DNA of 64,000 nt from Promethearchaeota archaeon (GTDB lineage: Archaea > Asgardarchaeota > Lokiarchaeia > Sigyniarchaeales > SOKP01). The DNA lies in the NCBI GenBank assembly GCA_048940925.1, contig JBHLOC010000006.1:62152-126151 (forward strand), read 5' to 3'. The translations under genes were made by a program, and so were the position numbers. The notes below the pieces were generated by a model, which ran no database searches, had not been told where the DNA came from, and saw only the letters and a list, made by a program, of their open reading frames with translations. Shown one piece after another: positions 3,472 to 11,793 of the stretch (position 1 is its first letter; every line of letters begins with the position of its first letter).

Positions 3472-4881
3472 TTGAGCGATTTAGAAGGATTAACTAGGAG
3501 GTTAATGGAAAAAGGTTCTACAAAGGATGAAATTATTGTACGGCTTGTTAATGAATATATGGATTTTAAAGACATTGATAAGGAGTCTGCAATCTCACTT
3601 TCTGAAGCAATTTATGAAGAATGTCGGAATAGCGACATAAAATTAGTGAGTGATCCCTTTATGAGATATTTATTAGATATTAATAAGGCAAATGTGACCA
3701 TTGGAAAACAAGGAGTGGGTTGTAGGGGATCTGGTGATTTTTTCGTTCATAAGCTCATTGCAAAATTATCTGAAACCGAGAAAAGGGCATATTTATCGCC
3801 AAGCTCCTTAGATGATGCTGGTGCTGTGAGAATAAGTGATATTGAAGGATTTAAAGCTGAAGATGAATTAATCATTGTATCCAAAATGGAAGGAATTCAT
3901 AGTCGCCTAAGTGACTTTCCATTCTTGTGTGGTTTTCACGTAAATTCGCGTAATAAGTTTGCGTGAAGCGTATCGAGAGCCGCACTAAGAGATCTCTATG
4001 TTAAAGGTGCAAAGCCTATTTCAATTATGATTGATACGCATCTAGGAGATGATGCAGATGTAGGGAAACTTTTTGATTTTATGGCAGGTGTTTCTGCAAT
4101 TTCAGAACTAGCGAAAGTTCCAATTACAGCAGGTTCAACACTTCGAATTGGAGGAGATATGGTTATTGGAAACCGCTTAGTTGGAGGAATTAGTGCTGTT
4201 GGAATATGTTCTCGAGTTTTAGCAAGGAAGAATATTAAAGTTGGCGATAAAATTTTAATGACAGAGGGATCGGGTGGAGGGACAATAACGACAACAGCAA
4301 TATATTCAGGTAATCATCATATAGTAAAGGAGACTATGAATATCAAATTTCTTGAAGCTTGTGAAATTATCTTAAATTCTGAATATCTTAATGAGATTCG
4401 TGCTATGTGCGATGTTACAAATGGTGGTCTTAGAGGAGATTTATATGAAATTAATTATGAAGCTAATTGTGGTGTTAATATTTTTGAAGAAAAAGTAAGA
4501 GCACTTGTAAATCCAAATGTTCTAAATATGCTAGAAAAGGTTGGAGTTGATTATCTAGGAGTTTCTTTGGATGCATTATTAATATATTGTTCTGACTCTA
4601 TATCTCAAGAAATTATAAATGATTTAAGAAGAAATAATATTAAGTGTGATGAAATAGGTTCTGTAGATGATTCAAATCAAGTTTATATTAGTTATCAAGG
4701 TAAGGAAAAAAAACAAATCCTTCCAAAATTCAGAGAATCTGCATATACTAAGATAAAACAAGAGATTGGAGAGAAAACCCCCAAGTCTCTTGAAGTAATG
4801 GAAAAAAGTGTTGAGAAAGCAGCTATGGAAGCGTTAGAGAAGCGTAATAAGATAATAGAATATATTTTGAAGCAAGAATAA
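3472..4881 (+). CDS. AIR synthase-related (PurM/HypE/SelD superfamily) protein, archaeal type; exons 3472-3943 and 3974-4881; 459 aa if spliced
   Basis: ORFs 3472-3966 and 4027-4881 share one frame, separated only by TGA 3964-3966. Superfamily motifs span the break: GVGCRGSGD, DDAG, EGIHSRLSDFPF, RAALRDLYVKGAKP, DVTNGGL. Confidence 0.88.
3944..3973 (+). other. Predicted 30-nt BHB (tRNA-type) intron in mRNA
   Basis: Outer helix 3927-3937/3975-3985; 4-bp central helix ACGU 3938-3941/GCGU 3968-3971; 3-nt bulges AAA 3942-3944 and AUC 3972-3974; inner helix 3945-3953/3959-3967. Contains the in-frame UGA. Confidence 0.88.
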
Positions 4882-4978: not shown

Positions 4979-5779
4979 ATGAATGAAACCAAATATTTTC
5001 TTTATAATCTTAATAATGTGGGAATTCAATGGTATTTAAGCAGTAATAAGAATATAGATGACAAAGCTTATTCTCCTCACTTACAACTTAGATGCTCAAA
5101 TTATGTAGATCCTTGGGAGGATAAATCTTCTCATTACCACTCAAAATCACAAGAAATCTTCATTTTGTTAGATGGAGAATTATGGATGATGCTTGATGGT
5201 GAACCATATACTATACTTAGAAATAATCTTTTACTTGTTCAACCGGGAGTTCCTCATATGATTATTGGGGGAAGAACAAAAATTCGACATTTTGTACTTA
5301 AAGTTCCACATCAAGAAGATAAATGGATTCAGCACAATGAAAATATTAATTATGATACTATAAAAGTTAAAATGGCAGAGAATCATTATAAAAGCGATAT
5401 TGATGGATTAAAAGGTTTTTTTGCAGATTTAAATGATAAAAAATTTCAGAATAATTGGTTACTTGGATATGGAGAAGCAATTTATAAAACTAAACACCTC
5501 TGTTTAGCTTATATGGATTTGAAGTGTGAACAAGTTTATAACGAAATGAATCATATTGAAACCTATCATTTTCATGAAGAGTCTACAGAATGGTATTTTA
5601 CGATAAAAGGACAACAGAAATTTTTAATAGATAATAAAGAGATATCTGTTGATCCAGGGTATCTATTAAGAATGCCTGAAAAAACACCTCATTTATTATT
5701 ATCCTATTCATACCCATTTGAAGGGATTACCTTAAGAACACCAGCAATACCTAACGATAAGATAATATTAAATAAATAA
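4979..5779 (+). CDS. Bicupin (two cupin domains)
   Basis: HYHSKSQE...PGVPH and HFHEESTE...PEKTPH metal-binding motifs. Confidence 0.85.
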   Translation: MNETKYFLYNLNNVGIQWYLSSNKNIDDKAYSPHLQLRCSNYVDPWEDKSSHYHSKSQEIFILLDGELWMMLDGEPYTILRNNLLLVQPGVPHMIIGGRTKIRHFVLKVPHQEDKWIQHNENINYDTIKVKMAENHYKSDIDGLKGFFADLNDKKFQNNWLLGYGEAIYKTKHLCLAYMDLKCEQVYNEMNHIETYHFHEESTEWYFTIKGQQKFLIDNKEISVDPGYLLRMPEKTPHLLLSYSYPFEGITLRTPAIPNDKIILNK

Positions 5780-5833: not shown

Positions 5834-6667
5834 TTATTTTTTATTGTTTAAATCCAAAACTTCATTCATAGAACCTGATCTGAATCCCTCAACATCGATT
5901 GTTATATATGTAAATCCAATTTCTTTCAGTTGGTTTTTTATTAATTTTAAATTTTCTACATTTAGAATTTTAGGTAAATCTTCAGGCATAAATTCGATAC
6001 GAGCAAGAGTTTCTTCATGTAATCTTACTCTTAACTGATCCAAATCAAATTTACTTTTAAGAAATTTTTCAGATTCCCTAATCATATATAATTTCTTTTC
6101 ATTAATAATTTGACCATAGGGAATCCGAGATGAAAAGCAAGCCATTGACGGTTTTGATTGAACATCTAAATCAAAATATTTGCTAATTTCTCTTATTTCT
6201 TTCTTATTAAGATTGCAATCGATAAAAGGAGTAGAGATATTTAATTCTTTTAAAGCTTGCATACCAGGTCTGTAATCCGAAAGATCATCAATATTAGAGC
6301 CATCTAAAATTGTATCAAAATTTTTTAACTTCTTAATTTGAAGAATCTCATCATATAAACCAGTTTTACAAATATAACATCGATTTTGAGGGTTACACCT
6401 AAAATCCTCATTTCTTAAAGGATCCCTATCAATTATCATATGAGGGATGTTATAAATTTCAGCGAATTGATGTGCTTCTTCAATTTCTTCTTCAGGATAA
6501 AGGTTTGAACGCTCAGTCACTAGTAACGTCTCTTTAGCATACTTTTTTGAAAGGAAAGCTAATAGAGAGCTGTCTACACCTCCTGAGAAGGCAACTATTA
6601 CTTTTTTGCTGTCTAAAAAAGAAATTAAACTTGCTAACTTTTTTTCAAGAATATCAGATAAATCCAT
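5834..6667 (-). CDS. larE: LarE-family ATP-dependent sulfur transferase
   Basis: PP-loop AFSGGVDS, NRCYICK, DYRPG, ACFSSRIPYG, GFRSGSMN. Confidence 0.9.
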   Translation of the reverse strand: MDLSDILEKKLASLISFLDSKKVIVAFSGGVDSSLLAFLSKKYAKETLLVTERSNLYPEEEIEEAHQFAEIYNIPHMIIDRDPLRNEDFRCNPQNRCYICKTGLYDEILQIKKLKNFDTILDGSNIDDLSDYRPGMQALKELNISTPFIDCNLNKKEIREISKYFDLDVQSKPSMACFSSRIPYGQIINEKKLYMIRESEKFLKSKFDLDQLRVRLHEETLARIEFMPEDLPKILNVENLKLIKNQLKEIGFTYITIDVEGFRSGSMNEVLDLNNKK

Positions 6668-7540: not shown

Positions 7541-8320
7541 CTACCATTTAAAGTTTGGATTAAAAAAGAGAAGTGTGTTTAACTTTTGCAACGTAATAAA
7601 TACTAAAACATAATACCAGCCAAGAGAAGAAAACATCATTATCCATTCAAGAAATTGTCTTGTTAAAGGTGCTGGAGCGATTAAAAACATTATAGTTGCT
7701 GTCGATGGACCTATTATCATAAAGTATCCAATAGTTTTAGGGAAAATTCTTCTTCTCAGTACTATTGCTAGTCCAGTGAAAAAAGCACCAAATGCGAACC
7801 CACCAAATGCTGAGGTAGAAAAATAATAATGGATATCGAAAGGGGAACGATCTAAACTAAAAACTCCTACAAAAAACATTCCTATAACTCCAAAAAAAAG
7901 ACAAACCACTCCAATATATCCAAATATTCTCCTAAACAAAACTGTGTAATGTTCTTTCTTTGAATTATCTAATCTAAGATTTTGATGTGAGCTATATAAT
8001 CGGCTTAAATTCAAAATTAAAGGGATTATGAAAATTGCTGACAAAATACATGTCACATCCAAGATAAAGGGAGCTGGTGTATATCTAGTTGATCCTAAAT
8101 CACTTATCCAATTATACCATAAGCTATACTCCATAGGTCCATAAATTTTAGCTATTATGAGTCCAAAGATTAATCCTGGCAAAAACGTCAGCAAGGTTAT
8201 ATAAATACTAATTTTAACTACTTTTGGCTCAGTAAGTTTATTATAAATATATTTACTATTTTTTTTCATTTTTAAAAAAATTGGATTGAAAAATTCCAAA
8301 TATAAATTTCTTTCCTTCAT
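7541..8320 (-). CDS. DUF998-like membrane protein
   Basis: NWISDLG motif, GVFS...IH, about five TMs, late EW motif; true start may be 8269. Confidence 0.75.
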   Translation of the reverse strand: MKERNLYLEFFNPIFLKMKKNSKYIYNKLTEPKVVKISIYITLLTFLPGLIFGLIIAKIYGPMEYSLWYNWISDLGSTRYTPAPFILDVTCILSAIFIIPLILNLSRLYSSHQNLRLDNSKKEHYTVLFRRIFGYIGVVCLFFGVIGMFFVGVFSLDRSPFDIHYYFSTSAFGGFAFGAFFTGLAIVLRRRIFPKTIGYFMIIGPSTATIMFLIAPAPLTRQFLEWIMMFSSLGWYYVLVFITLQKLNTLLFFNPNFKW

Positions 8321-8571: not shown

Positions 8572-9210
8572 ATGACTAGAAGGGTAAAAGAAATTTTAAC
8601 AAAGTGGCCTTTATCGTGTATAATTGGATTTTTACTTGTTATCTTATCTTGGGCTTCAATGTCGATTGCAATCATATTAGCTCCGCGTACTTTCAATCCC
8701 TTTAAAAATTATATGAGTAGTTTAGGTAACTCTTCATTTAATCCTGATGGAGCTTTTTTTTATAATGTCTCAGTAATAGTTTCTGGATTTTTGTTTACAC
8801 TTTTTTTTCTAGGATTATCTATGTGGTATACTGATATAATAATAGATAAAAATATACTAAGAATGACTCAAATGTTTGGTTGCTTATTAGCTTTTACAAT
8901 AATATTAACAGGAATTTTTTCTGAAGATTTTAAGCCACAGCATATATTCTGGTCAATTATAGCGGGGATTTTAGGTTTTGTTGTTAATGTTCTTTTAGCA
9001 ATATTTTTAATTAGACAAAAAGAAGCTATAAGAAAAATATCTTATTCTATATTGATATTAATAGGATTTTATGTGATATTTTTATTTATATTAAGTCCTA
9101 CTCACGTTTTAACTGAATGGATTGTAAGAACTTTGGGAGATATAAATTTGATCTTAATTACATACAATCTTAAGAAAATATATTCAATTAGAATATACTT
9201 ATTTTCTTAA
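8572..9210 (+). CDS. DUF998-like membrane protein
   Basis: NYMSSLG, GIFSEDFKPQH, EW motif, about five TMs. Confidence 0.75.
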   Translation: MTRRVKEILTKWPLSCIIGFLLVILSWASMSIAIILAPRTFNPFKNYMSSLGNSSFNPDGAFFYNVSVIVSGFLFTLFFLGLSMWYTDIIIDKNILRMTQMFGCLLAFTIILTGIFSEDFKPQHIFWSIIAGILGFVVNVLLAIFLIRQKEAIRKISYSILILIGFYVIFLFILSPTHVLTEWIVRTLGDINLILITYNLKKIYSIRIYLFS

Positions 9211-9240: not shown

Positions 9241-9906
9241 TTAAATGATTGATTCTAATTTTAAATGTCTATCCTTTCCTGATAGACGGTATAATTTAGT
9301 AGACATTATAAATATCCAAGAAAGAGGAACAAAAAGCCCTAATCGTTGTATAAGGCCATTGACTAAAGAAATTTCAACCAAAAGTGCAATTGGAGTATAT
9401 ATAATTAAAAAGATCCCAATTTGCAAAAAGAAGAGCCACCAATAGTTTTGCCAATTATAGTCTTTCCATAATGGATATAAAGAAAGAAGAATTGCTGAAG
9501 GCATGGCAATCGAAGGAAATTTAATTAGTGAATTATGACTTATACCTGTAAATGTTATGTTTCTACAACCTGCATCACATGGAAACATTGAAAGTGCAAA
9601 AATACATATACCAGATAGTATAAAGAGAACCATACTTATTGTTATTAATGGATGCTTTTTAACACCTAGATAAAGACCAAATCCAAAAAAAATTAAATAA
9701 AGACCGAATACATTAAAACCAAAAATGTCCATAATCAAATTGTACGGTGCTTCTGAAGTGGCTAGCTCACTGATAAATTGACTCATAGGATTATACCCAG
9801 GATAAAGAGATCCTAAGACTGTAAATACTATTAAATTAATTACAGGACCGACGATTCCAAAAATAGCTGATGTTCTCTGAAGTCGATTCATATGAATTAT
9901 ATCCAT
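9241..9906 (-). CDS. DUF998 membrane protein
   Basis: YPGYNPMSQFISELA, FPCD...H, GLIQR. Confidence 0.8.
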   Translation of the reverse strand: MDIIHMNRLQRTSAIFGIVGPVINLIVFTVLGSLYPGYNPMSQFISELATSEAPYNLIMDIFGFNVFGLYLIFFGFGLYLGVKKHPLITISMVLFILSGICIFALSMFPCDAGCRNITFTGISHNSLIKFPSIAMPSAILLSLYPLWKDYNWQNYWWLFFLQIGIFLIIYTPIALLVEISLVNGLIQRLGLFVPLSWIFIMSTKLYRLSGKDRHLKLESII

Positions 9907-10202: not shown

Positions 10203-10745
10203 ATGATAAGACGAGTCAAAGAATTAGATTCAAATGCTTTGATAGCATCGAAAGATTTCAGAGACTATGTCGAAAAACAAGAAACCGAAATCAATCGAGG
10301 TATTTCTTCCCTATGTATACTTTCTATACTTATACAAGCAGGTGAGGAGGGTTTGTATGGCTATAAAATTTTGAAAGATTTAACGGAACAAACTAATGAA
10401 ATGTTAGTTATTGAAGAAGGTACACTTTATCCAATATTAAGAAAATTAGAAGATGATGCTATAATAACAGCTAGAAAAGAGGATTCAGGAAGACGGAGAA
10501 AATTTTACAGTGTTACAGAATACGGAAAAAAAATTTTTAATCATCTAGCAGGATTCTATAGCAAATTAACAGAAGCTATTGCACCACTGTTTGATGTTAA
10601 AGTAAATTTAAAGTCAGAAAAATATTTGTTTTGTCCTATGTGTGCTAACAAAATTGAGCTTACTAATTTAGAGCTCCGTTTTTGTGACGTTTGTGGACAT
10701 AATATTGAAAAAGAATTAAAAGAAAGAGGTTTAAGACATGAGTGA
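10203..10745 (+). CDS. PadR-family regulator with C-terminal zinc ribbon
   Basis: YGYKILK...EGTLYPILRKLE...RRKFYSVTEYG; CPMC...CDVC. Confidence 0.9.
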   Translation: MIRRVKELDSNALIASKDFRDYVEKQETEINRGISSLCILSILIQAGEEGLYGYKILKDLTEQTNEMLVIEEGTLYPILRKLEDDAIITARKEDSGRRRKFYSVTEYGKKIFNHLAGFYSKLTEAIAPLFDVKVNLKSEKYLFCPMCANKIELTNLELRFCDVCGHNIEKELKERGLRHE

Positions 10746-11793
10746 AAAAGAAATGAGGAATATAGTAAAAGAATATTTAAAGGAAGTTAAAAACAAACTC
10801 CCTGATTGGTTAAAAGAGAAAAAAGAGCATAAAGATTTATTAGCTGAACTAGAAGAACACATTTGGAATAAGGCAGAAGAGTTATCAGAAACAGATCAAC
10901 CAACAGTCGAATCAGTTCATATAGCAGTTACTCATATGGGAACTCCAGAGAGCATTGCTAAAGAATATAAACGCCGAGGAACACCAAAAGTTTATATCAC
11001 TGAAGAGATGTGGCCAATATATTTGAGGGTTTTAGGAATTGTATTTGCTGTGATCATCGGGATTACCATATTAACACAGGTGATAGACTTCATTTTTGGA
11101 AACCTTAATGTTGGTGAATTGATTATAAATATCATTCAAGGAATACAGATTGGAGGTCTTGGAGCCTTTGTTATAATCACTATAATATTTGTAGTACTTT
11201 CTATGGAAGGTTACTTTCCTGAAGATTTTAAATCTAAAAAAACTCGTGAGAAGGAAAAACAACAACTTGAAATAGCACGAAAAAAAGGTCTTCCAATTTC
11301 AGTAATAAAGGAAAAACCACTAAAGCCATTTATTAAACCTGCAGGTGAGATTATAGGAGGAGCATTCGGGATTACATTTGGAATATTATTTCTTATCCAA
11401 CCAATTCCTGCCATCACAAGCTTGATTGCCCCAGAATTTCTATTATATCTTCAATTTGCGGGAGTATTCATTTTAATTGAAGGAATATTAGATTTATCAC
11501 GAGGATTAATCGGAAATAGACAAATGATTACTCATCAAATAATTCATGTGATAACCATTGCTATAAAACTTGCATCTATATCCGTAGTGATCTTGGTGAT
11601 GAATCGACCAGAGATATTCCCAATAATAATTGTTGAAGAACCAGGGGCCGGGTTAGTAAATATAGGAATCGCACCAGAATATTACAATATTTTTAGAGGA
11701 ATAGCGGGTTTGGTTATTGCATTAGTAGCACTTAGTACAATTGAAGATTTTTATAAGATTTATAAGGCTGAAGGATACAAATCTAAATATTAA
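10738..11793 (+). CDS. HAAS-domain membrane protein (PadR partner)
   Basis: YLKEVK...ELEEHI...MGTPESIAKEY N-terminus followed by about six TMs; overlaps padR by 8 nt. Confidence 0.75.
   Translation: MSEKEMRNIVKEYLKEVKNKLPDWLKEKKEHKDLLAELEEHIWNKAEELSETDQPTVESVHIAVTHMGTPESIAKEYKRRGTPKVYITEEMWPIYLRVLGIVFAVIIGITILTQVIDFIFGNLNVGELIINIIQGIQIGGLGAFVIITIIFVVLSMEGYFPEDFKSKKTREKEKQQLEIARKKGLPISVIKEKPLKPFIKPAGEIIGGAFGITFGILFLIQPIPAITSLIAPEFLLYLQFAGVFILIEGILDLSRGLIGNRQMITHQIIHVITIAIKLASISVVILVMNRPEIFPIIIVEEPGAGLVNIGIAPEYYNIFRGIAGLVIALVALSTIEDFYKIYKAEGYKSKY

What the first reader, a model, noticed from the sequence alone, without database searches (positions are those of the whole stretch)
3923..3990. 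Near-perfect bulge-helix-bulge intron inside an mRNA (AIR-synthase-related gene)
Seen: the two ORFs are one reading frame broken by a single UGA. The surrounding RNA folds as an 11-bp outer helix (GUGUGGUUUUC 3927-3937 / GAGAGCCGCAC 3975-3985, extendable by UCUU/AAGA), a 4-bp central helix (ACGU/GCGU), two 3-nt bulges on opposite strands (AAA, AUC) and a 9-bp inner stem (UUCGCGUAA/UUGCGUGAA) with a 5-nt loop. Several G-U pairs imply selection on RNA structure rather than a DNA palindrome. Established: archaeal tRNA splicing endonuclease (EndA) cuts BHB motifs after the second bulge nucleotide and RtcB ligates the exons; crenarchaeal cbf5 is the classic mRNA example. Applying that rule removes exactly 30 nt (3944-3973), deletes the UGA and yields CAC GTA ACG AGA GCC = H-V-T-R-A. 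This gives GFHVTRAALRD, which matches my recollection of intron-less archaeal homologs (not verified here). Inference: the 459-aa protein requires tRNA-type splicing, while unspliced RNA gives a 164-aa truncation.
Basis: partly seen in the sequence, partly recalled or inferred. Interest (0 to 1): 0.95.

Follow-up and report, generated by a model that had tools for sequence, protein, structure and literature searches.

The report
tRNA-type intron in Asgard enzyme gene
The only copy of a conserved ATP-using enzyme gene in this Asgard archaeon is broken by a 30-base insert shaped like the introns archaea cut out of tRNAs, so its message almost certainly has to be spliced by the tRNA-splicing enzymes, which the papers I could search report for only two other archaeal messenger RNAs.

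Summary
ORFs 3472-3966 and 4027-4881 share one frame, broken by a single TGA. The RNA 3923-3990 folds as its minimum-energy structure into a canonical hBHBh' motif: two 3-nt bulges separated by 4 bp (z = -5.2).

Cutting after the second nucleotide of each bulge removes 3944-3973 and gives GFHVTRAALRD, the sequence of intron-less homologues, which lack exactly these 10 codons.

I found the insert at the same codon in 30 orthologues from six related genera and in 35 metagenome contigs, 49 distinct sequences in all.
- All 40 distinct 30-nt forms carry an in-frame stop.
- Nine forms are 29 nt long and shift the frame, so read-through or recoding cannot rescue them.
- 94% of pair cells are paired and 9 pairs show compensatory changes.
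- Exon codons are tuned to the outer helix.
- dN/dS is 0.10-0.17.

The genome encodes EndA alpha and beta and RtcB, has a single copy of this gene, and holds at least six more 30-31-nt introns of the same build in other genes.

No RNA data could be obtained, so splicing is inferred. It is a new member of a known kind (cbf5-type mRNA intron). This scan had already noted the same intron, and many like it, on other Asgard DNA.

The parts
3472..3943 (+). Exon 1 of the PurM-superfamily (AIR-synthase-related) gene. It has a TTG start and ends with the first two nucleotides (AA) of the 5' bulge.
   Evidence: Homologues start at the same MSDLEGL/LSDLEGL.
3944..3973 (+). 30-nt BHB intron: third nucleotide of the 5' bulge, 9-bp inner stem with 5-nt loop, 3' strand of the central helix, and the first two nucleotides of the 3' bulge.
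   Evidence: Fold. Homologues lack exactly these 10 codons. Removal gives an intact 459-aa ORF. Covariation.
3974..4881 (+). Exon 2, including the TAA stop. It encodes the rest of the AIRS N-domain and the AIRS_C domain.
   Evidence: Pfam PF00586 and PF02769. dN/dS is 0.10-0.17 across intron-bearing orthologues.
3923..3990 (+). Complete hBHBh' motif: outer exon-exon helix, 4-bp central helix, two 3-nt bulges and inner intron hairpin.
   Evidence: MFE equals centroid, z = -5.2; 94% of 833 pair cells are paired across 30 orthologues.
3927..3937 (+). 5' strand of the outer helix h (exon 1). It pairs with 3975-3985.
   Evidence: On average 10.7 of 11 pairs form in intron-bearing genes, against 6.3 of 11 at the same codons of intron-less genes.
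3975..3985 (+). 3' strand of the outer helix h (exon 2).
3938..3941 (+). 5' strand (ACGU, exon) of the 4-bp central helix H. It pairs with GCGU at 3968-3971 (intron).
   Evidence: 98% paired across orthologues, with one C-G to U-A double change.
3942..3944 (+). 5' bulge AAA. The predicted cut lies between 3943 and 3944.
   Evidence: Only a cut after the second bulge nucleotide gives the conserved Thr codon ACG.
3972..3974 (+). 3' bulge AUC. The predicted cut lies between 3973 and 3974.
   Evidence: The junction codon is ACG in 30 of 30 orthologues.
3945..3967 (+). Inner helix h' (9 bp) with the 5-nt loop UAAGU.
   Evidence: 6 of the 9 pairs show changes on both sides among orthologues.
3964..3966 (+). 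In-frame UGA inside the intron. It stops translation of unspliced RNA.
   Evidence: All 40 distinct 30-nt variants carry an in-frame TGA or TAA.

Best explanation
Positions 3944-3973 are an archaeal bulge-helix-bulge (tRNA-type) intron inside the coding sequence of the genome's only copy of a conserved PurM-superfamily enzyme gene.

Proposed mechanism, all steps inferred: the pre-mRNA folds locally into an hBHBh' motif built half from exon and half from intron. The (alpha-beta)2 splicing endonuclease EndA cuts after the second nucleotide of each 3-nt bulge (after A3943 and after U3973). RtcB joins the exons into ...CAC GUA A|CG AGA GCC..., and probably circularises the 30-nt intron. The joined message encodes a 459-aa protein reading GFHVTRAALRD.

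Unspliced RNA stops at UGA 3964-3966 and cannot give the enzyme.

Shown here: the structure, its conservation and covariation, the exact match of the predicted product to intron-less homologues, purifying selection on both exons, and the presence of the enzymes.

Inferred only: that cleavage and ligation actually occur, and where.
For: (1) Canonical geometry as the MFE fold, z = -5.2.

(2) Intron-less homologues lack exactly the 10 codons and read GFHV-TRAALRD.

(3) The insert sits at the same codon in 30 orthologues of six genera of one family. It is also in 35 metagenome contigs, 28 of them distinct and 22 new.

(4) After excision all give intact 458-468-aa ORFs, apart from two orthologues on truncated contigs that give 374 and 397 aa.

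(5) 8 orthologues have a 29-nt insert that shifts the frame (9 of the 49 distinct sequences once metagenome contigs are counted). Some 30-nt forms have TAA instead of TGA. All 40 distinct 30-nt forms carry a stop. Only removal of the insert, not read-through, can give the protein.

(6) Covariation: 94% of cells are paired and 9 pairs have changes on both sides, 6 of them among the 9 pairs of the non-coding inner stem. 0 of 500 shuffles reach the observed values, and slid controls give 33-59% paired.

(7) Exon codons are tuned to the motif. In intron-bearing genes His is CAC in 28 of 30, Thr is ACG in 30 of 30 and Arg is AGR in 30 of 30. In intron-less genes the same codons are CAT in 15 of 15, ACT/ACA/ACC/GCG, and mostly CGN. 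Outer-helix pairing is 10.7 of 11 against 6.3 of 11.

(8) dN/dS is 0.10-0.17 between intron-bearing orthologues, including pairs with the frameshifting form.

(9) The genome encodes two EndA paralogues and RtcB. One paralogue has the Tyr/His/Lys catalytic residues and the other lacks them (the residue assignment rests on my knowledge of EndA).

(10) G000 has one copy of the gene.

(11) My own scan found the same build (1 + 9 bp + 5-6-nt loop + 9 bp + 4 + 2) in other genes of this genome. These include an EF-2-like gene, a GH38 mannosidase, an AMP phosphorylase, a Rab-like GTPase, an acyl-CoA mutase and an Elp3-like gene. In each, the same cut rule restores a conserved motif, for example WDIAGQ|PQF and DKHS|TGG. 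ORF-restoring 30-nt hits numbered 9, against 2 in a mirrored-geometry control.
Against: No RNA evidence. No RNA run was listed for this sequence, so neither the spliced junction nor a circular intron has been seen.

No contig with the predicted spliced junction was found in the metagenome or genome collections. These collections are probably DNA, so this says little about RNA.

The cut position (after bulge nucleotide 2) is taken from established EndA biochemistry as I recall it, plus the fit to the conserved Thr. I could not confirm it from a held paper. I also could not calibrate it on this genome's tRNAs.

Raw counts of BHB-like shapes in the genome are not above a mirrored control. The shape alone would therefore not be significant without the coding and comparative evidence.
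Confidence: 0.92

Rival explanations
1. The UGA is recoded (selenocysteine, Trp or another read-through), and the ten extra residues are part of the protein.
For: The insert is a multiple of three with a single UGA in this genome. Automatic gene callers read two relatives (P0002, P0042) through with TGA=W. SelD, a PurM-superfamily member, is a selenoprotein in some organisms (my knowledge).
Against: 8 of the 30 orthologues have a 29-nt insert that shifts the frame. Others carry TAA, or two stops. Intron-less homologues lack all ten residues. Substitutions in the insert preserve base pairs, not amino acids.
Confidence: 0.01
2. The gene is a pseudogene inactivated by insertion of a small palindromic element, or the insert is an assembly artefact.
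For: There is a stop codon in a conserved motif. The insert is a hairpin, as many small mobile or repeat elements are.
Against: The same insert is in 30 independent genome assemblies and 35 metagenome contigs. Both exons stay open, with dN/dS of 0.10-0.17. The insert has been kept at one codon across six genera, with compensatory changes and exon codon tuning. It is the only copy of the gene in G000.
Confidence: 0.02
3. The ribosome bypasses the insert (gene-60-like hopping from GUA at 3940-3942 to GUA at 3970-3972), or the two CGUA repeats mediate slippage, giving GFHV-SRAALRD without RNA cutting.
For: A direct repeat CGUA flanks the insert, and a stable hairpin lies between take-off and landing codons, as in T4 gene 60 (my knowledge). 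Ser would be a conservative replacement of Thr.
Against: The repeat is a by-product of the near-palindromic central helix ACGU/GCGU. In L004 the helix covaries to AUGU/GCAU, which keeps the pairing but removes the landing GUA. The other mRNA inserts of this genome have the same BHB build but no such repeats. The two precisely placed 3-nt bulges and the 4-bp spacing are conserved, and hopping does not require them.
Confidence: 0.02
4. It is a real BHB intron whose removal is regulated. Splicing efficiency acts as an on/off gate for the enzyme, possibly together with the other intron-bearing genes, rather than being constitutive housekeeping.
For: Every variant blocks translation of unspliced RNA by a stop or a frameshift. 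The intron has been retained for a long time although loss is possible: the intron-less G205/P0017 sits inside the intron-bearing clade. Several unrelated genes of the genome carry introns of the same build.
Against: There is no expression data. The retained stops lie in conserved stem positions and may be a by-product. The patchy distribution fits neutral persistence equally well.
Confidence: 0.15

Closest known systems
cbf5 pre-mRNA intron of Crenarchaeota (Desulfurococcales and Sulfolobales; Watanabe 2002, Yoshinari 2006, Yokobori 2009 = PMC2738675)
   Same: A short BHB-type intron inside an archaeal protein-coding sequence. It is removed by the tRNA splicing endonuclease and a ligase. The hosts have a hetero-oligomeric (alpha-beta)2 EndA. 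Its distribution among relatives is patchy, with gains and losses.
   Different: The host gene differs (a PurM-superfamily enzyme, not the pseudouridine synthase) and so does the phylum (Asgard). According to the 2023 review PMC10485636 the cbf5 motif is a relaxed BHB, whereas this one is strictly canonical with an 11-bp exon helix. Splicing of cbf5 has been shown experimentally. Here it is inferred.
HVO_1309 mRNA intron of Haloferax volcanii (cited in PMC10485636)
   Same: An archaeal mRNA cut by the tRNA splicing endonuclease at a BHB. RNA-seq shows the spliced form.
   Different: It is in a euryarchaeon with an alpha2-type enzyme. It is described as a 5' UTR intron only in an unchecked note from this scan, which I did not verify. 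The review does not state its location. The present intron interrupts a conserved catalytic-domain motif.
Archaeal tRNA and rRNA BHB introns (hBHBh' motif; Marck and Grosjean 2003)
   Same: Identical motif definition: two 3-nt bulges, a 4-bp helix and flanking helices. Same enzymes.
   Different: The substrate is an mRNA. The exon half of the motif has to be built from codons, and synonymous sites are visibly tuned for it.
HAC1/XBP1 unconventional mRNA splicing in eukaryotes (RtcB-dependent ligation in metazoa)
   Same: Non-spliceosomal, protein-catalysed excision of a short intron from an mRNA at stem-loop sites. RtcB does the ligation, and the reading frame or product changes on splicing.
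   Different: The endonuclease is IRE1, not EndA/TSEN. The recognition motif is different. The eukaryotic case is a regulated stress response.

Membership tests
Archaeal BHB (hBHBh') intron spliced by EndA/RtcB | [quoted passage not shown] | tested here: met
   bulges at 3942-3944 and 3972-3974, helix 3938-3941 with 3968-3971. The geometry is kept in all 30 orthologues.
Archaeal BHB (hBHBh') intron spliced by EndA/RtcB | Flanking helices h (exon-exon) and h' (intron-intron) | tested here: met
   11 (+4) bp outer helix and 9-bp inner helix. These are 97% and 94% paired across orthologues.
Archaeal BHB (hBHBh') intron spliced by EndA/RtcB | Structure maintained by selection (compensatory changes) | tested here: met
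   9 pairs changed on both sides, 0 of 500 shuffles reach the observed values, slid controls 33-59% paired. Exon codon tuning.
Archaeal BHB (hBHBh') intron spliced by EndA/RtcB | Excision at the bulges yields the functional product | tested here: met
   the product equals intron-less homologues (GFHVTRAALRD). ORFs are intact in all 30 orthologues, including the eight 29-nt frameshifting forms.
Archaeal BHB (hBHBh') intron spliced by EndA/RtcB | Splicing endonuclease and RtcB ligase encoded by the organism | tested here: met
   two PF01974 hits, 102 and 70 bits. RtcB, 556 bits; the N-terminal and catalytic domains are both present in the alpha paralogue.
Archaeal BHB (hBHBh') intron spliced by EndA/RtcB | Spliced RNA junction or excised (circular) intron observed | not testable with these tools
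cbf5 pre-mRNA intron family | Located in the cbf5 gene at the homologous site | tested here: not met
   The host is an AIRS/AIRS_C protein. This intron works like the cbf5 intron but is not homologous to it.
PurM superfamily (AIR-synthase-related proteins) | AIRS N-terminal and AIRS_C domains | tested here: met
   PF02769 at 50 bits and PF00586 at 24.7 bits, found in exon 2 alone. Intron-less homologues carry both domains.
ThiL / HypE / SelD / PurM / PurL (characterised PurM-fold enzymes) | Score above the NCBIfam equivalog cut-off | tested here: not met
   the best score is 60 bits against cut-offs of 125-648. The nearest solved structures are HypE and SelD, at E about 1e-7 to 1e-5. The enzyme's specific function is unknown.
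Selenocysteine or stop-codon recoding site | Reading frame continuous through the stop in all members | tested here: not met
   Eight of the 30 orthologues have a 29-nt frameshifting insert. Others have TAA or two stops.

The most novel reading that the evidence does not exclude
EndA/RtcB splicing of messenger RNAs is a general layer of gene expression in this Asgard lineage. Many unrelated genes, here at least seven in one genome, can only be expressed after tRNA-type splicing. The obligatory stop or frameshift in each intron makes that splicing a gate that could couple their expression to the state of the tRNA-splicing machinery. That would be a prokaryotic counterpart of HAC1/XBP1-type cytoplasmic mRNA splicing, in the closest archaeal relatives of eukaryotes.
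Probability: 0.2. Interest if true: 0.9.

Novelty: new member of a known kind. Interest (0 to 1): 0.8.

Why it matters
The papers I could search document tRNA-type splicing of archaeal mRNAs for only two genes: cbf5 in Crenarchaeota and HVO_1309 in Haloferax. A 2023 review (PMC10485636) says more probably remain to be found. A preprint of October 2026 on Asgard introns deals with tRNA genes only.

This case extends the mechanism to Asgard archaea and to an ordinary enzyme gene, and its comparative evidence is unusually clean. There are 49 distinct intron sequences at one codon. The frameshifting variants rule out read-through. The exon codons show visible selection to build the splice motif.

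The same genome holds at least six further introns of the same build. Protein-catalysed mRNA splicing may therefore be routine in the archaeal lineage closest to eukaryotes.

There is also a practical consequence. Automatic annotation splits such genes or reads them with the wrong genetic code: two relatives were called with TGA=W. Gene inventories and metabolic reconstructions of Asgard genomes are distorted wherever these introns occur.

Tried and rejected
- **RNA evidence:** no RNA holder was listed for 3472-4881. Read laying therefore could not be used.
- **Spliced-junction search:** a 26-nt degenerate pattern for the predicted junction found 0 matches in metagenome contigs and 0 in genome contigs. 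No assembled transcript or precise DNA deletion allele was seen. The collections are probably DNA, so this is not evidence about RNA.
- **Naive genome-wide shape scans:** BHB-like shapes are no more frequent than a mirrored-geometry control (3967 against 4077; 135 against 149). Loose ORF-restoration filters gave equal counts (16 against 13, 25 against 25, 194 against 191). Only the fixed 30-nt build plus long open frames separated signal from noise (9 against 2).
- **Calibrating the cut rule on this genome's tRNAs:** this failed. ARAGORN called 34 tRNAs, 22 with introns, but none of its intron lengths matched a BHB. Its models are probably confused by multiple or non-canonical introns.
- **Literature on the cut rule:** Marck and Grosjean 2003 is not held, and PMC3241643 does not state the cut position within the bulge.
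- **Window scans:** Rfam and tRNA scans of the window found nothing.
- **Rejected readings:** recoding, pseudogene or artefact, and ribosome hopping were considered and rejected on the evidence given under the rival explanations.

Full report
**What is in the sequence**

ORFs 3472-3966 (164 aa, TTG start) and 4027-4881 lie in the same frame. A single TGA at 3964-3966 separates them.

- an 11-bp outer helix, 3927-3937 with 3975-3985, extended by 3923-3926 with 3987-3990 across one unpaired U;
- a 4-bp central helix, ACGU 3938-3941 with GCGU 3968-3971;
- two 3-nt bulges on opposite strands, AAA 3942-3944 and AUC 3972-3974;
- a 9-bp inner stem with a 5-nt loop.

The energy is -31.8 kcal/mol, against -16.3 +/- 3.0 for shuffles (z = -5.2). 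This is the canonical hBHBh' geometry of archaeal introns.

**Organism and machinery**

The window is part of a 4.8-Mb, 90-contig genome with 29.6% G+C. The closest homologues of its proteins are named Promethearchaeota, Lokiarchaeia or Hodarchaeota, so it is an Asgard archaeon.

The genome encodes two EndA paralogues (PF01974, 102 and 70 bits) and RtcB (556 bits). One paralogue has the N-terminal and catalytic domains and the Tyr/His/Lys residues. The other lacks them (the residue assignment rests on my knowledge of EndA). This fits the (alpha-beta)2 enzyme with broad specificity reported for Asgard and TACK archaea (PMC5829648).

ARAGORN finds only 34 tRNAs, 22 of them with introns. Its models are unreliable here. 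The picture still agrees with the heavily interrupted tRNA genes described for Asgard archaea (bioRxiv 10.64898/2026.10.13.758758).

**The host gene**

Exon 2 carries AIRS and AIRS_C domains. The whole protein falls far below the equivalog cut-offs for ThiL, HypE, SelD and PurL. Its nearest solved relatives are HypE and SelD, at E about 1e-7 to 1e-5. It is therefore a PurM-fold, presumably ATP-dependent, enzyme of unknown specific function.

It is very well conserved among Asgard archaea (70-80% identity) and is present once in this genome.

**The predicted product matches intron-less homologues**

In an alignment of the read-through translation with 16 homologues, 14 lack exactly ten residues and read GFHV-TRA(A/C)LRD. 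Cutting after the second nucleotide of each bulge removes 3944-3973 and gives CAC GUA A|CG AGA GCC, which is H-V-T-R-A.

A cut after the first bulge nucleotide would give Ser, and a cut after the third would give Lys. Only the canonical position reproduces the conserved Thr.

The same rule applied to other introns of this genome restores invariant motifs, for example the Gln of DxxGQ in a Rab-like GTPase.

**Comparative evidence**

A six-frame search of 400 genomes of the phylum found the gene in 156. I extracted 30 intron-bearing orthologues in total: 28 from six genera of the window's family and two from assembled contigs.
- 22 have a 30-nt insert.
- 8 have a 29-nt insert that shifts the frame.
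- After excision all give intact 458-468-aa ORFs with GFHVTRA(A/T)LRD. Two orthologues on truncated contigs give 374 and 397 aa.

A pattern search found the insert in 35 further metagenome contigs, 28 distinct and 22 new. They include contigs with LAZR01 accessions.

Over all the data there are 49 distinct junction-plus-intron sequences. All 40 of the 30-nt forms carry an in-frame TGA or TAA, and nine forms are 29 nt long.

**Structure conservation**

On the 30-sequence alignment (A2), 94% of 833 pair cells form standard pairs. Nine pairs show changes on both sides, six of them among the nine pairs of the inner stem. No shuffle out of 500 reaches the observed values, and sliding the partners drops pairing to 33-59%.

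In the 29-nt forms of two genera the missing base is the partner of one inner-stem C. That leaves the bulge-helix-bulge core untouched.

**Exon tuning and selection**

| Codon or measure | Intron-bearing genes | Intron-less genes |
|---|---|---|
| His | CAC in 28 of 30 | CAT in 15 of 15 |
| Thr at the junction | ACG in 30 of 30 | ACT, ACA, ACC or GCG |
| Arg | AGR in 30 of 30 | CGN in 12 of 15 |
| Outer-helix pairs formed | 10.7 of 11 | 6.3 of 11 |

dN/dS between intron-bearing orthologues is 0.10-0.17, including pairs with the frameshifting form. Both exons are therefore translated in the spliced frame.

**History**

In a maximum-likelihood tree the intron-bearing genes cluster.
- One well-supported clade has 18 intron-bearing genes plus one intron-less lineage (G205/P0017), which is most simply an intron loss.
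- A separate well-supported clade has 21 intron-less genes.
- A weakly supported group holds seven of the eight 29-nt forms (genera g6 and g11) and one divergent 30-nt form.

Both kinds of gene occur within the window's genus, and some genomes hold two or three copies. The intron is therefore old and mostly vertically inherited within one gene lineage. I did not resolve whether paralogy or transfer explains the mixture.

**Rivals**

- Recoding of UGA is excluded by the frameshifting and TAA variants.
- Pseudogene and artefact are excluded by the intact ORFs, purifying selection, and recurrence in independent assemblies.
- Ribosome hopping or deletion between the flanking CGUA repeats is unlikely. 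The repeat follows from the near-palindromic central helix. In L004 the helix covaries (C-G to U-A), and this destroys the repeat but keeps the pair.
- A regulatory role for splicing can be neither supported nor excluded.

**Context in the genome**

Simple shape scans are not informative. Requiring the fixed build and long open frames gave nine 30-nt ORF-restoring hits against two in a mirrored control. Among the 30- and 31-nt hits, the convincing ones besides this intron are:
- an EF-2-like gene (C32:27895-27924);
- a GH38 mannosidase (C43:76068-76097);
- an AMP phosphorylase (C64:13177-13206);
- a Rab-like GTPase (C78:59767-59796);
- an acyl-CoA mutase (C71:54629-54659, 31 nt);
- an Elp3-like gene (C40:183124-183154, 31 nt).

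All are built as 1 nt + 9-bp stem + 5-6-nt loop + 9 bp + 4 nt + 2 nt, and they share no sequence similarity.

Earlier notes of this scan had listed most of these. They also listed the same PurM-gene intron in other genomes, and several hundred similar notes in at least 95 genomes. One note reports environmental RNA reads joining the exons of another Asgard gene. I did not check that.

**Literature**

The held library documents EndA-dependent mRNA splicing for cbf5 (PMC2738675) and HVO_1309. A 2023 review expects more to be found (PMC10485636). Searches combining BHB, Asgard or Lokiarchaeota, and mRNA or protein-coding introns found no report of such introns in Asgard protein genes.

**Verdict**

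This is a real, strongly supported BHB intron in an Asgard protein-coding gene: a new member of a known kind. Splicing itself remains to be shown at the RNA level.

Noticed in passing
G000 contigs outside the window, plus-strand coordinates: C32:27895-27924; C43:76068-76097; C64:13177-13206; C78:59767-59796; C71:54629-54659; C40:183124-183154; C77:31160-31189: Further 30-31-nt inserts of the same build (9-bp hairpin, 4-bp helix, two 3-nt bulges) interrupt other protein genes. They are an EF-2-like gene, a GH38 mannosidase, an AMP phosphorylase, a Rab-like GTPase, an acyl-CoA mutase, an Elp3-like gene and one gene of unknown function. Excision by the same rule restores conserved motifs. The inserts share no sequence similarity with each other.
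   Followed up: partly
window 4979-5779 (+) and 5834-6667 (-): A double-cupin protein lies downstream of the intron-bearing gene, followed by a convergent PP-loop ATPase (QueC/NAD-synthase/LarE-like, SGGVDSS motif). Earlier notes report the PurM-like gene next to a LarE-like gene or to mptG/mptD in other genomes. This is a possible lead to its function.
   Followed up: no
window 7541-8320 (-), 8572-9210 (+), 9241-9906 (-): Three neighbouring DUF998 membrane-protein paralogues, followed by a PadR-family regulator and a HAAS-domain protein at 10203-11793.
   Followed up: no
L025 (G205:C1:150900-155267) and protein P0017: An intron-less copy of the gene sits inside the otherwise intron-bearing clade of the gene tree. 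This is most simply an intron loss. Its junction codons (ACC CGT) no longer carry the intron-type codon signature.
   Followed up: partly
G252, G145, G227, G204: Some related genomes hold two or three copies of this PurM-like gene. G252 has one intron-bearing and two intron-less copies. Whether this reflects paralogy, transfer or mixed bins was not resolved.
   Followed up: no
L004 (Logan SRR26113683 contig) and L005 (ENA ERZ23486235 contig): Automatic gene calling read these intron-bearing genes through with TGA=W (genetic code 4) and stored proteins with a spurious 10-residue insert containing W. BHB introns thus cause wrong code assignment and wrong protein sequences in public collections.
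   Followed up: yes
whole genome G000: ARAGORN finds only 34 tRNA genes, 22 of them with introns of 9-89 nt, in a genome scored 100% complete. None of its intron calls matched a BHB of the same length. Many tRNA genes are probably interrupted in ways the program cannot model.
   Followed up: partly
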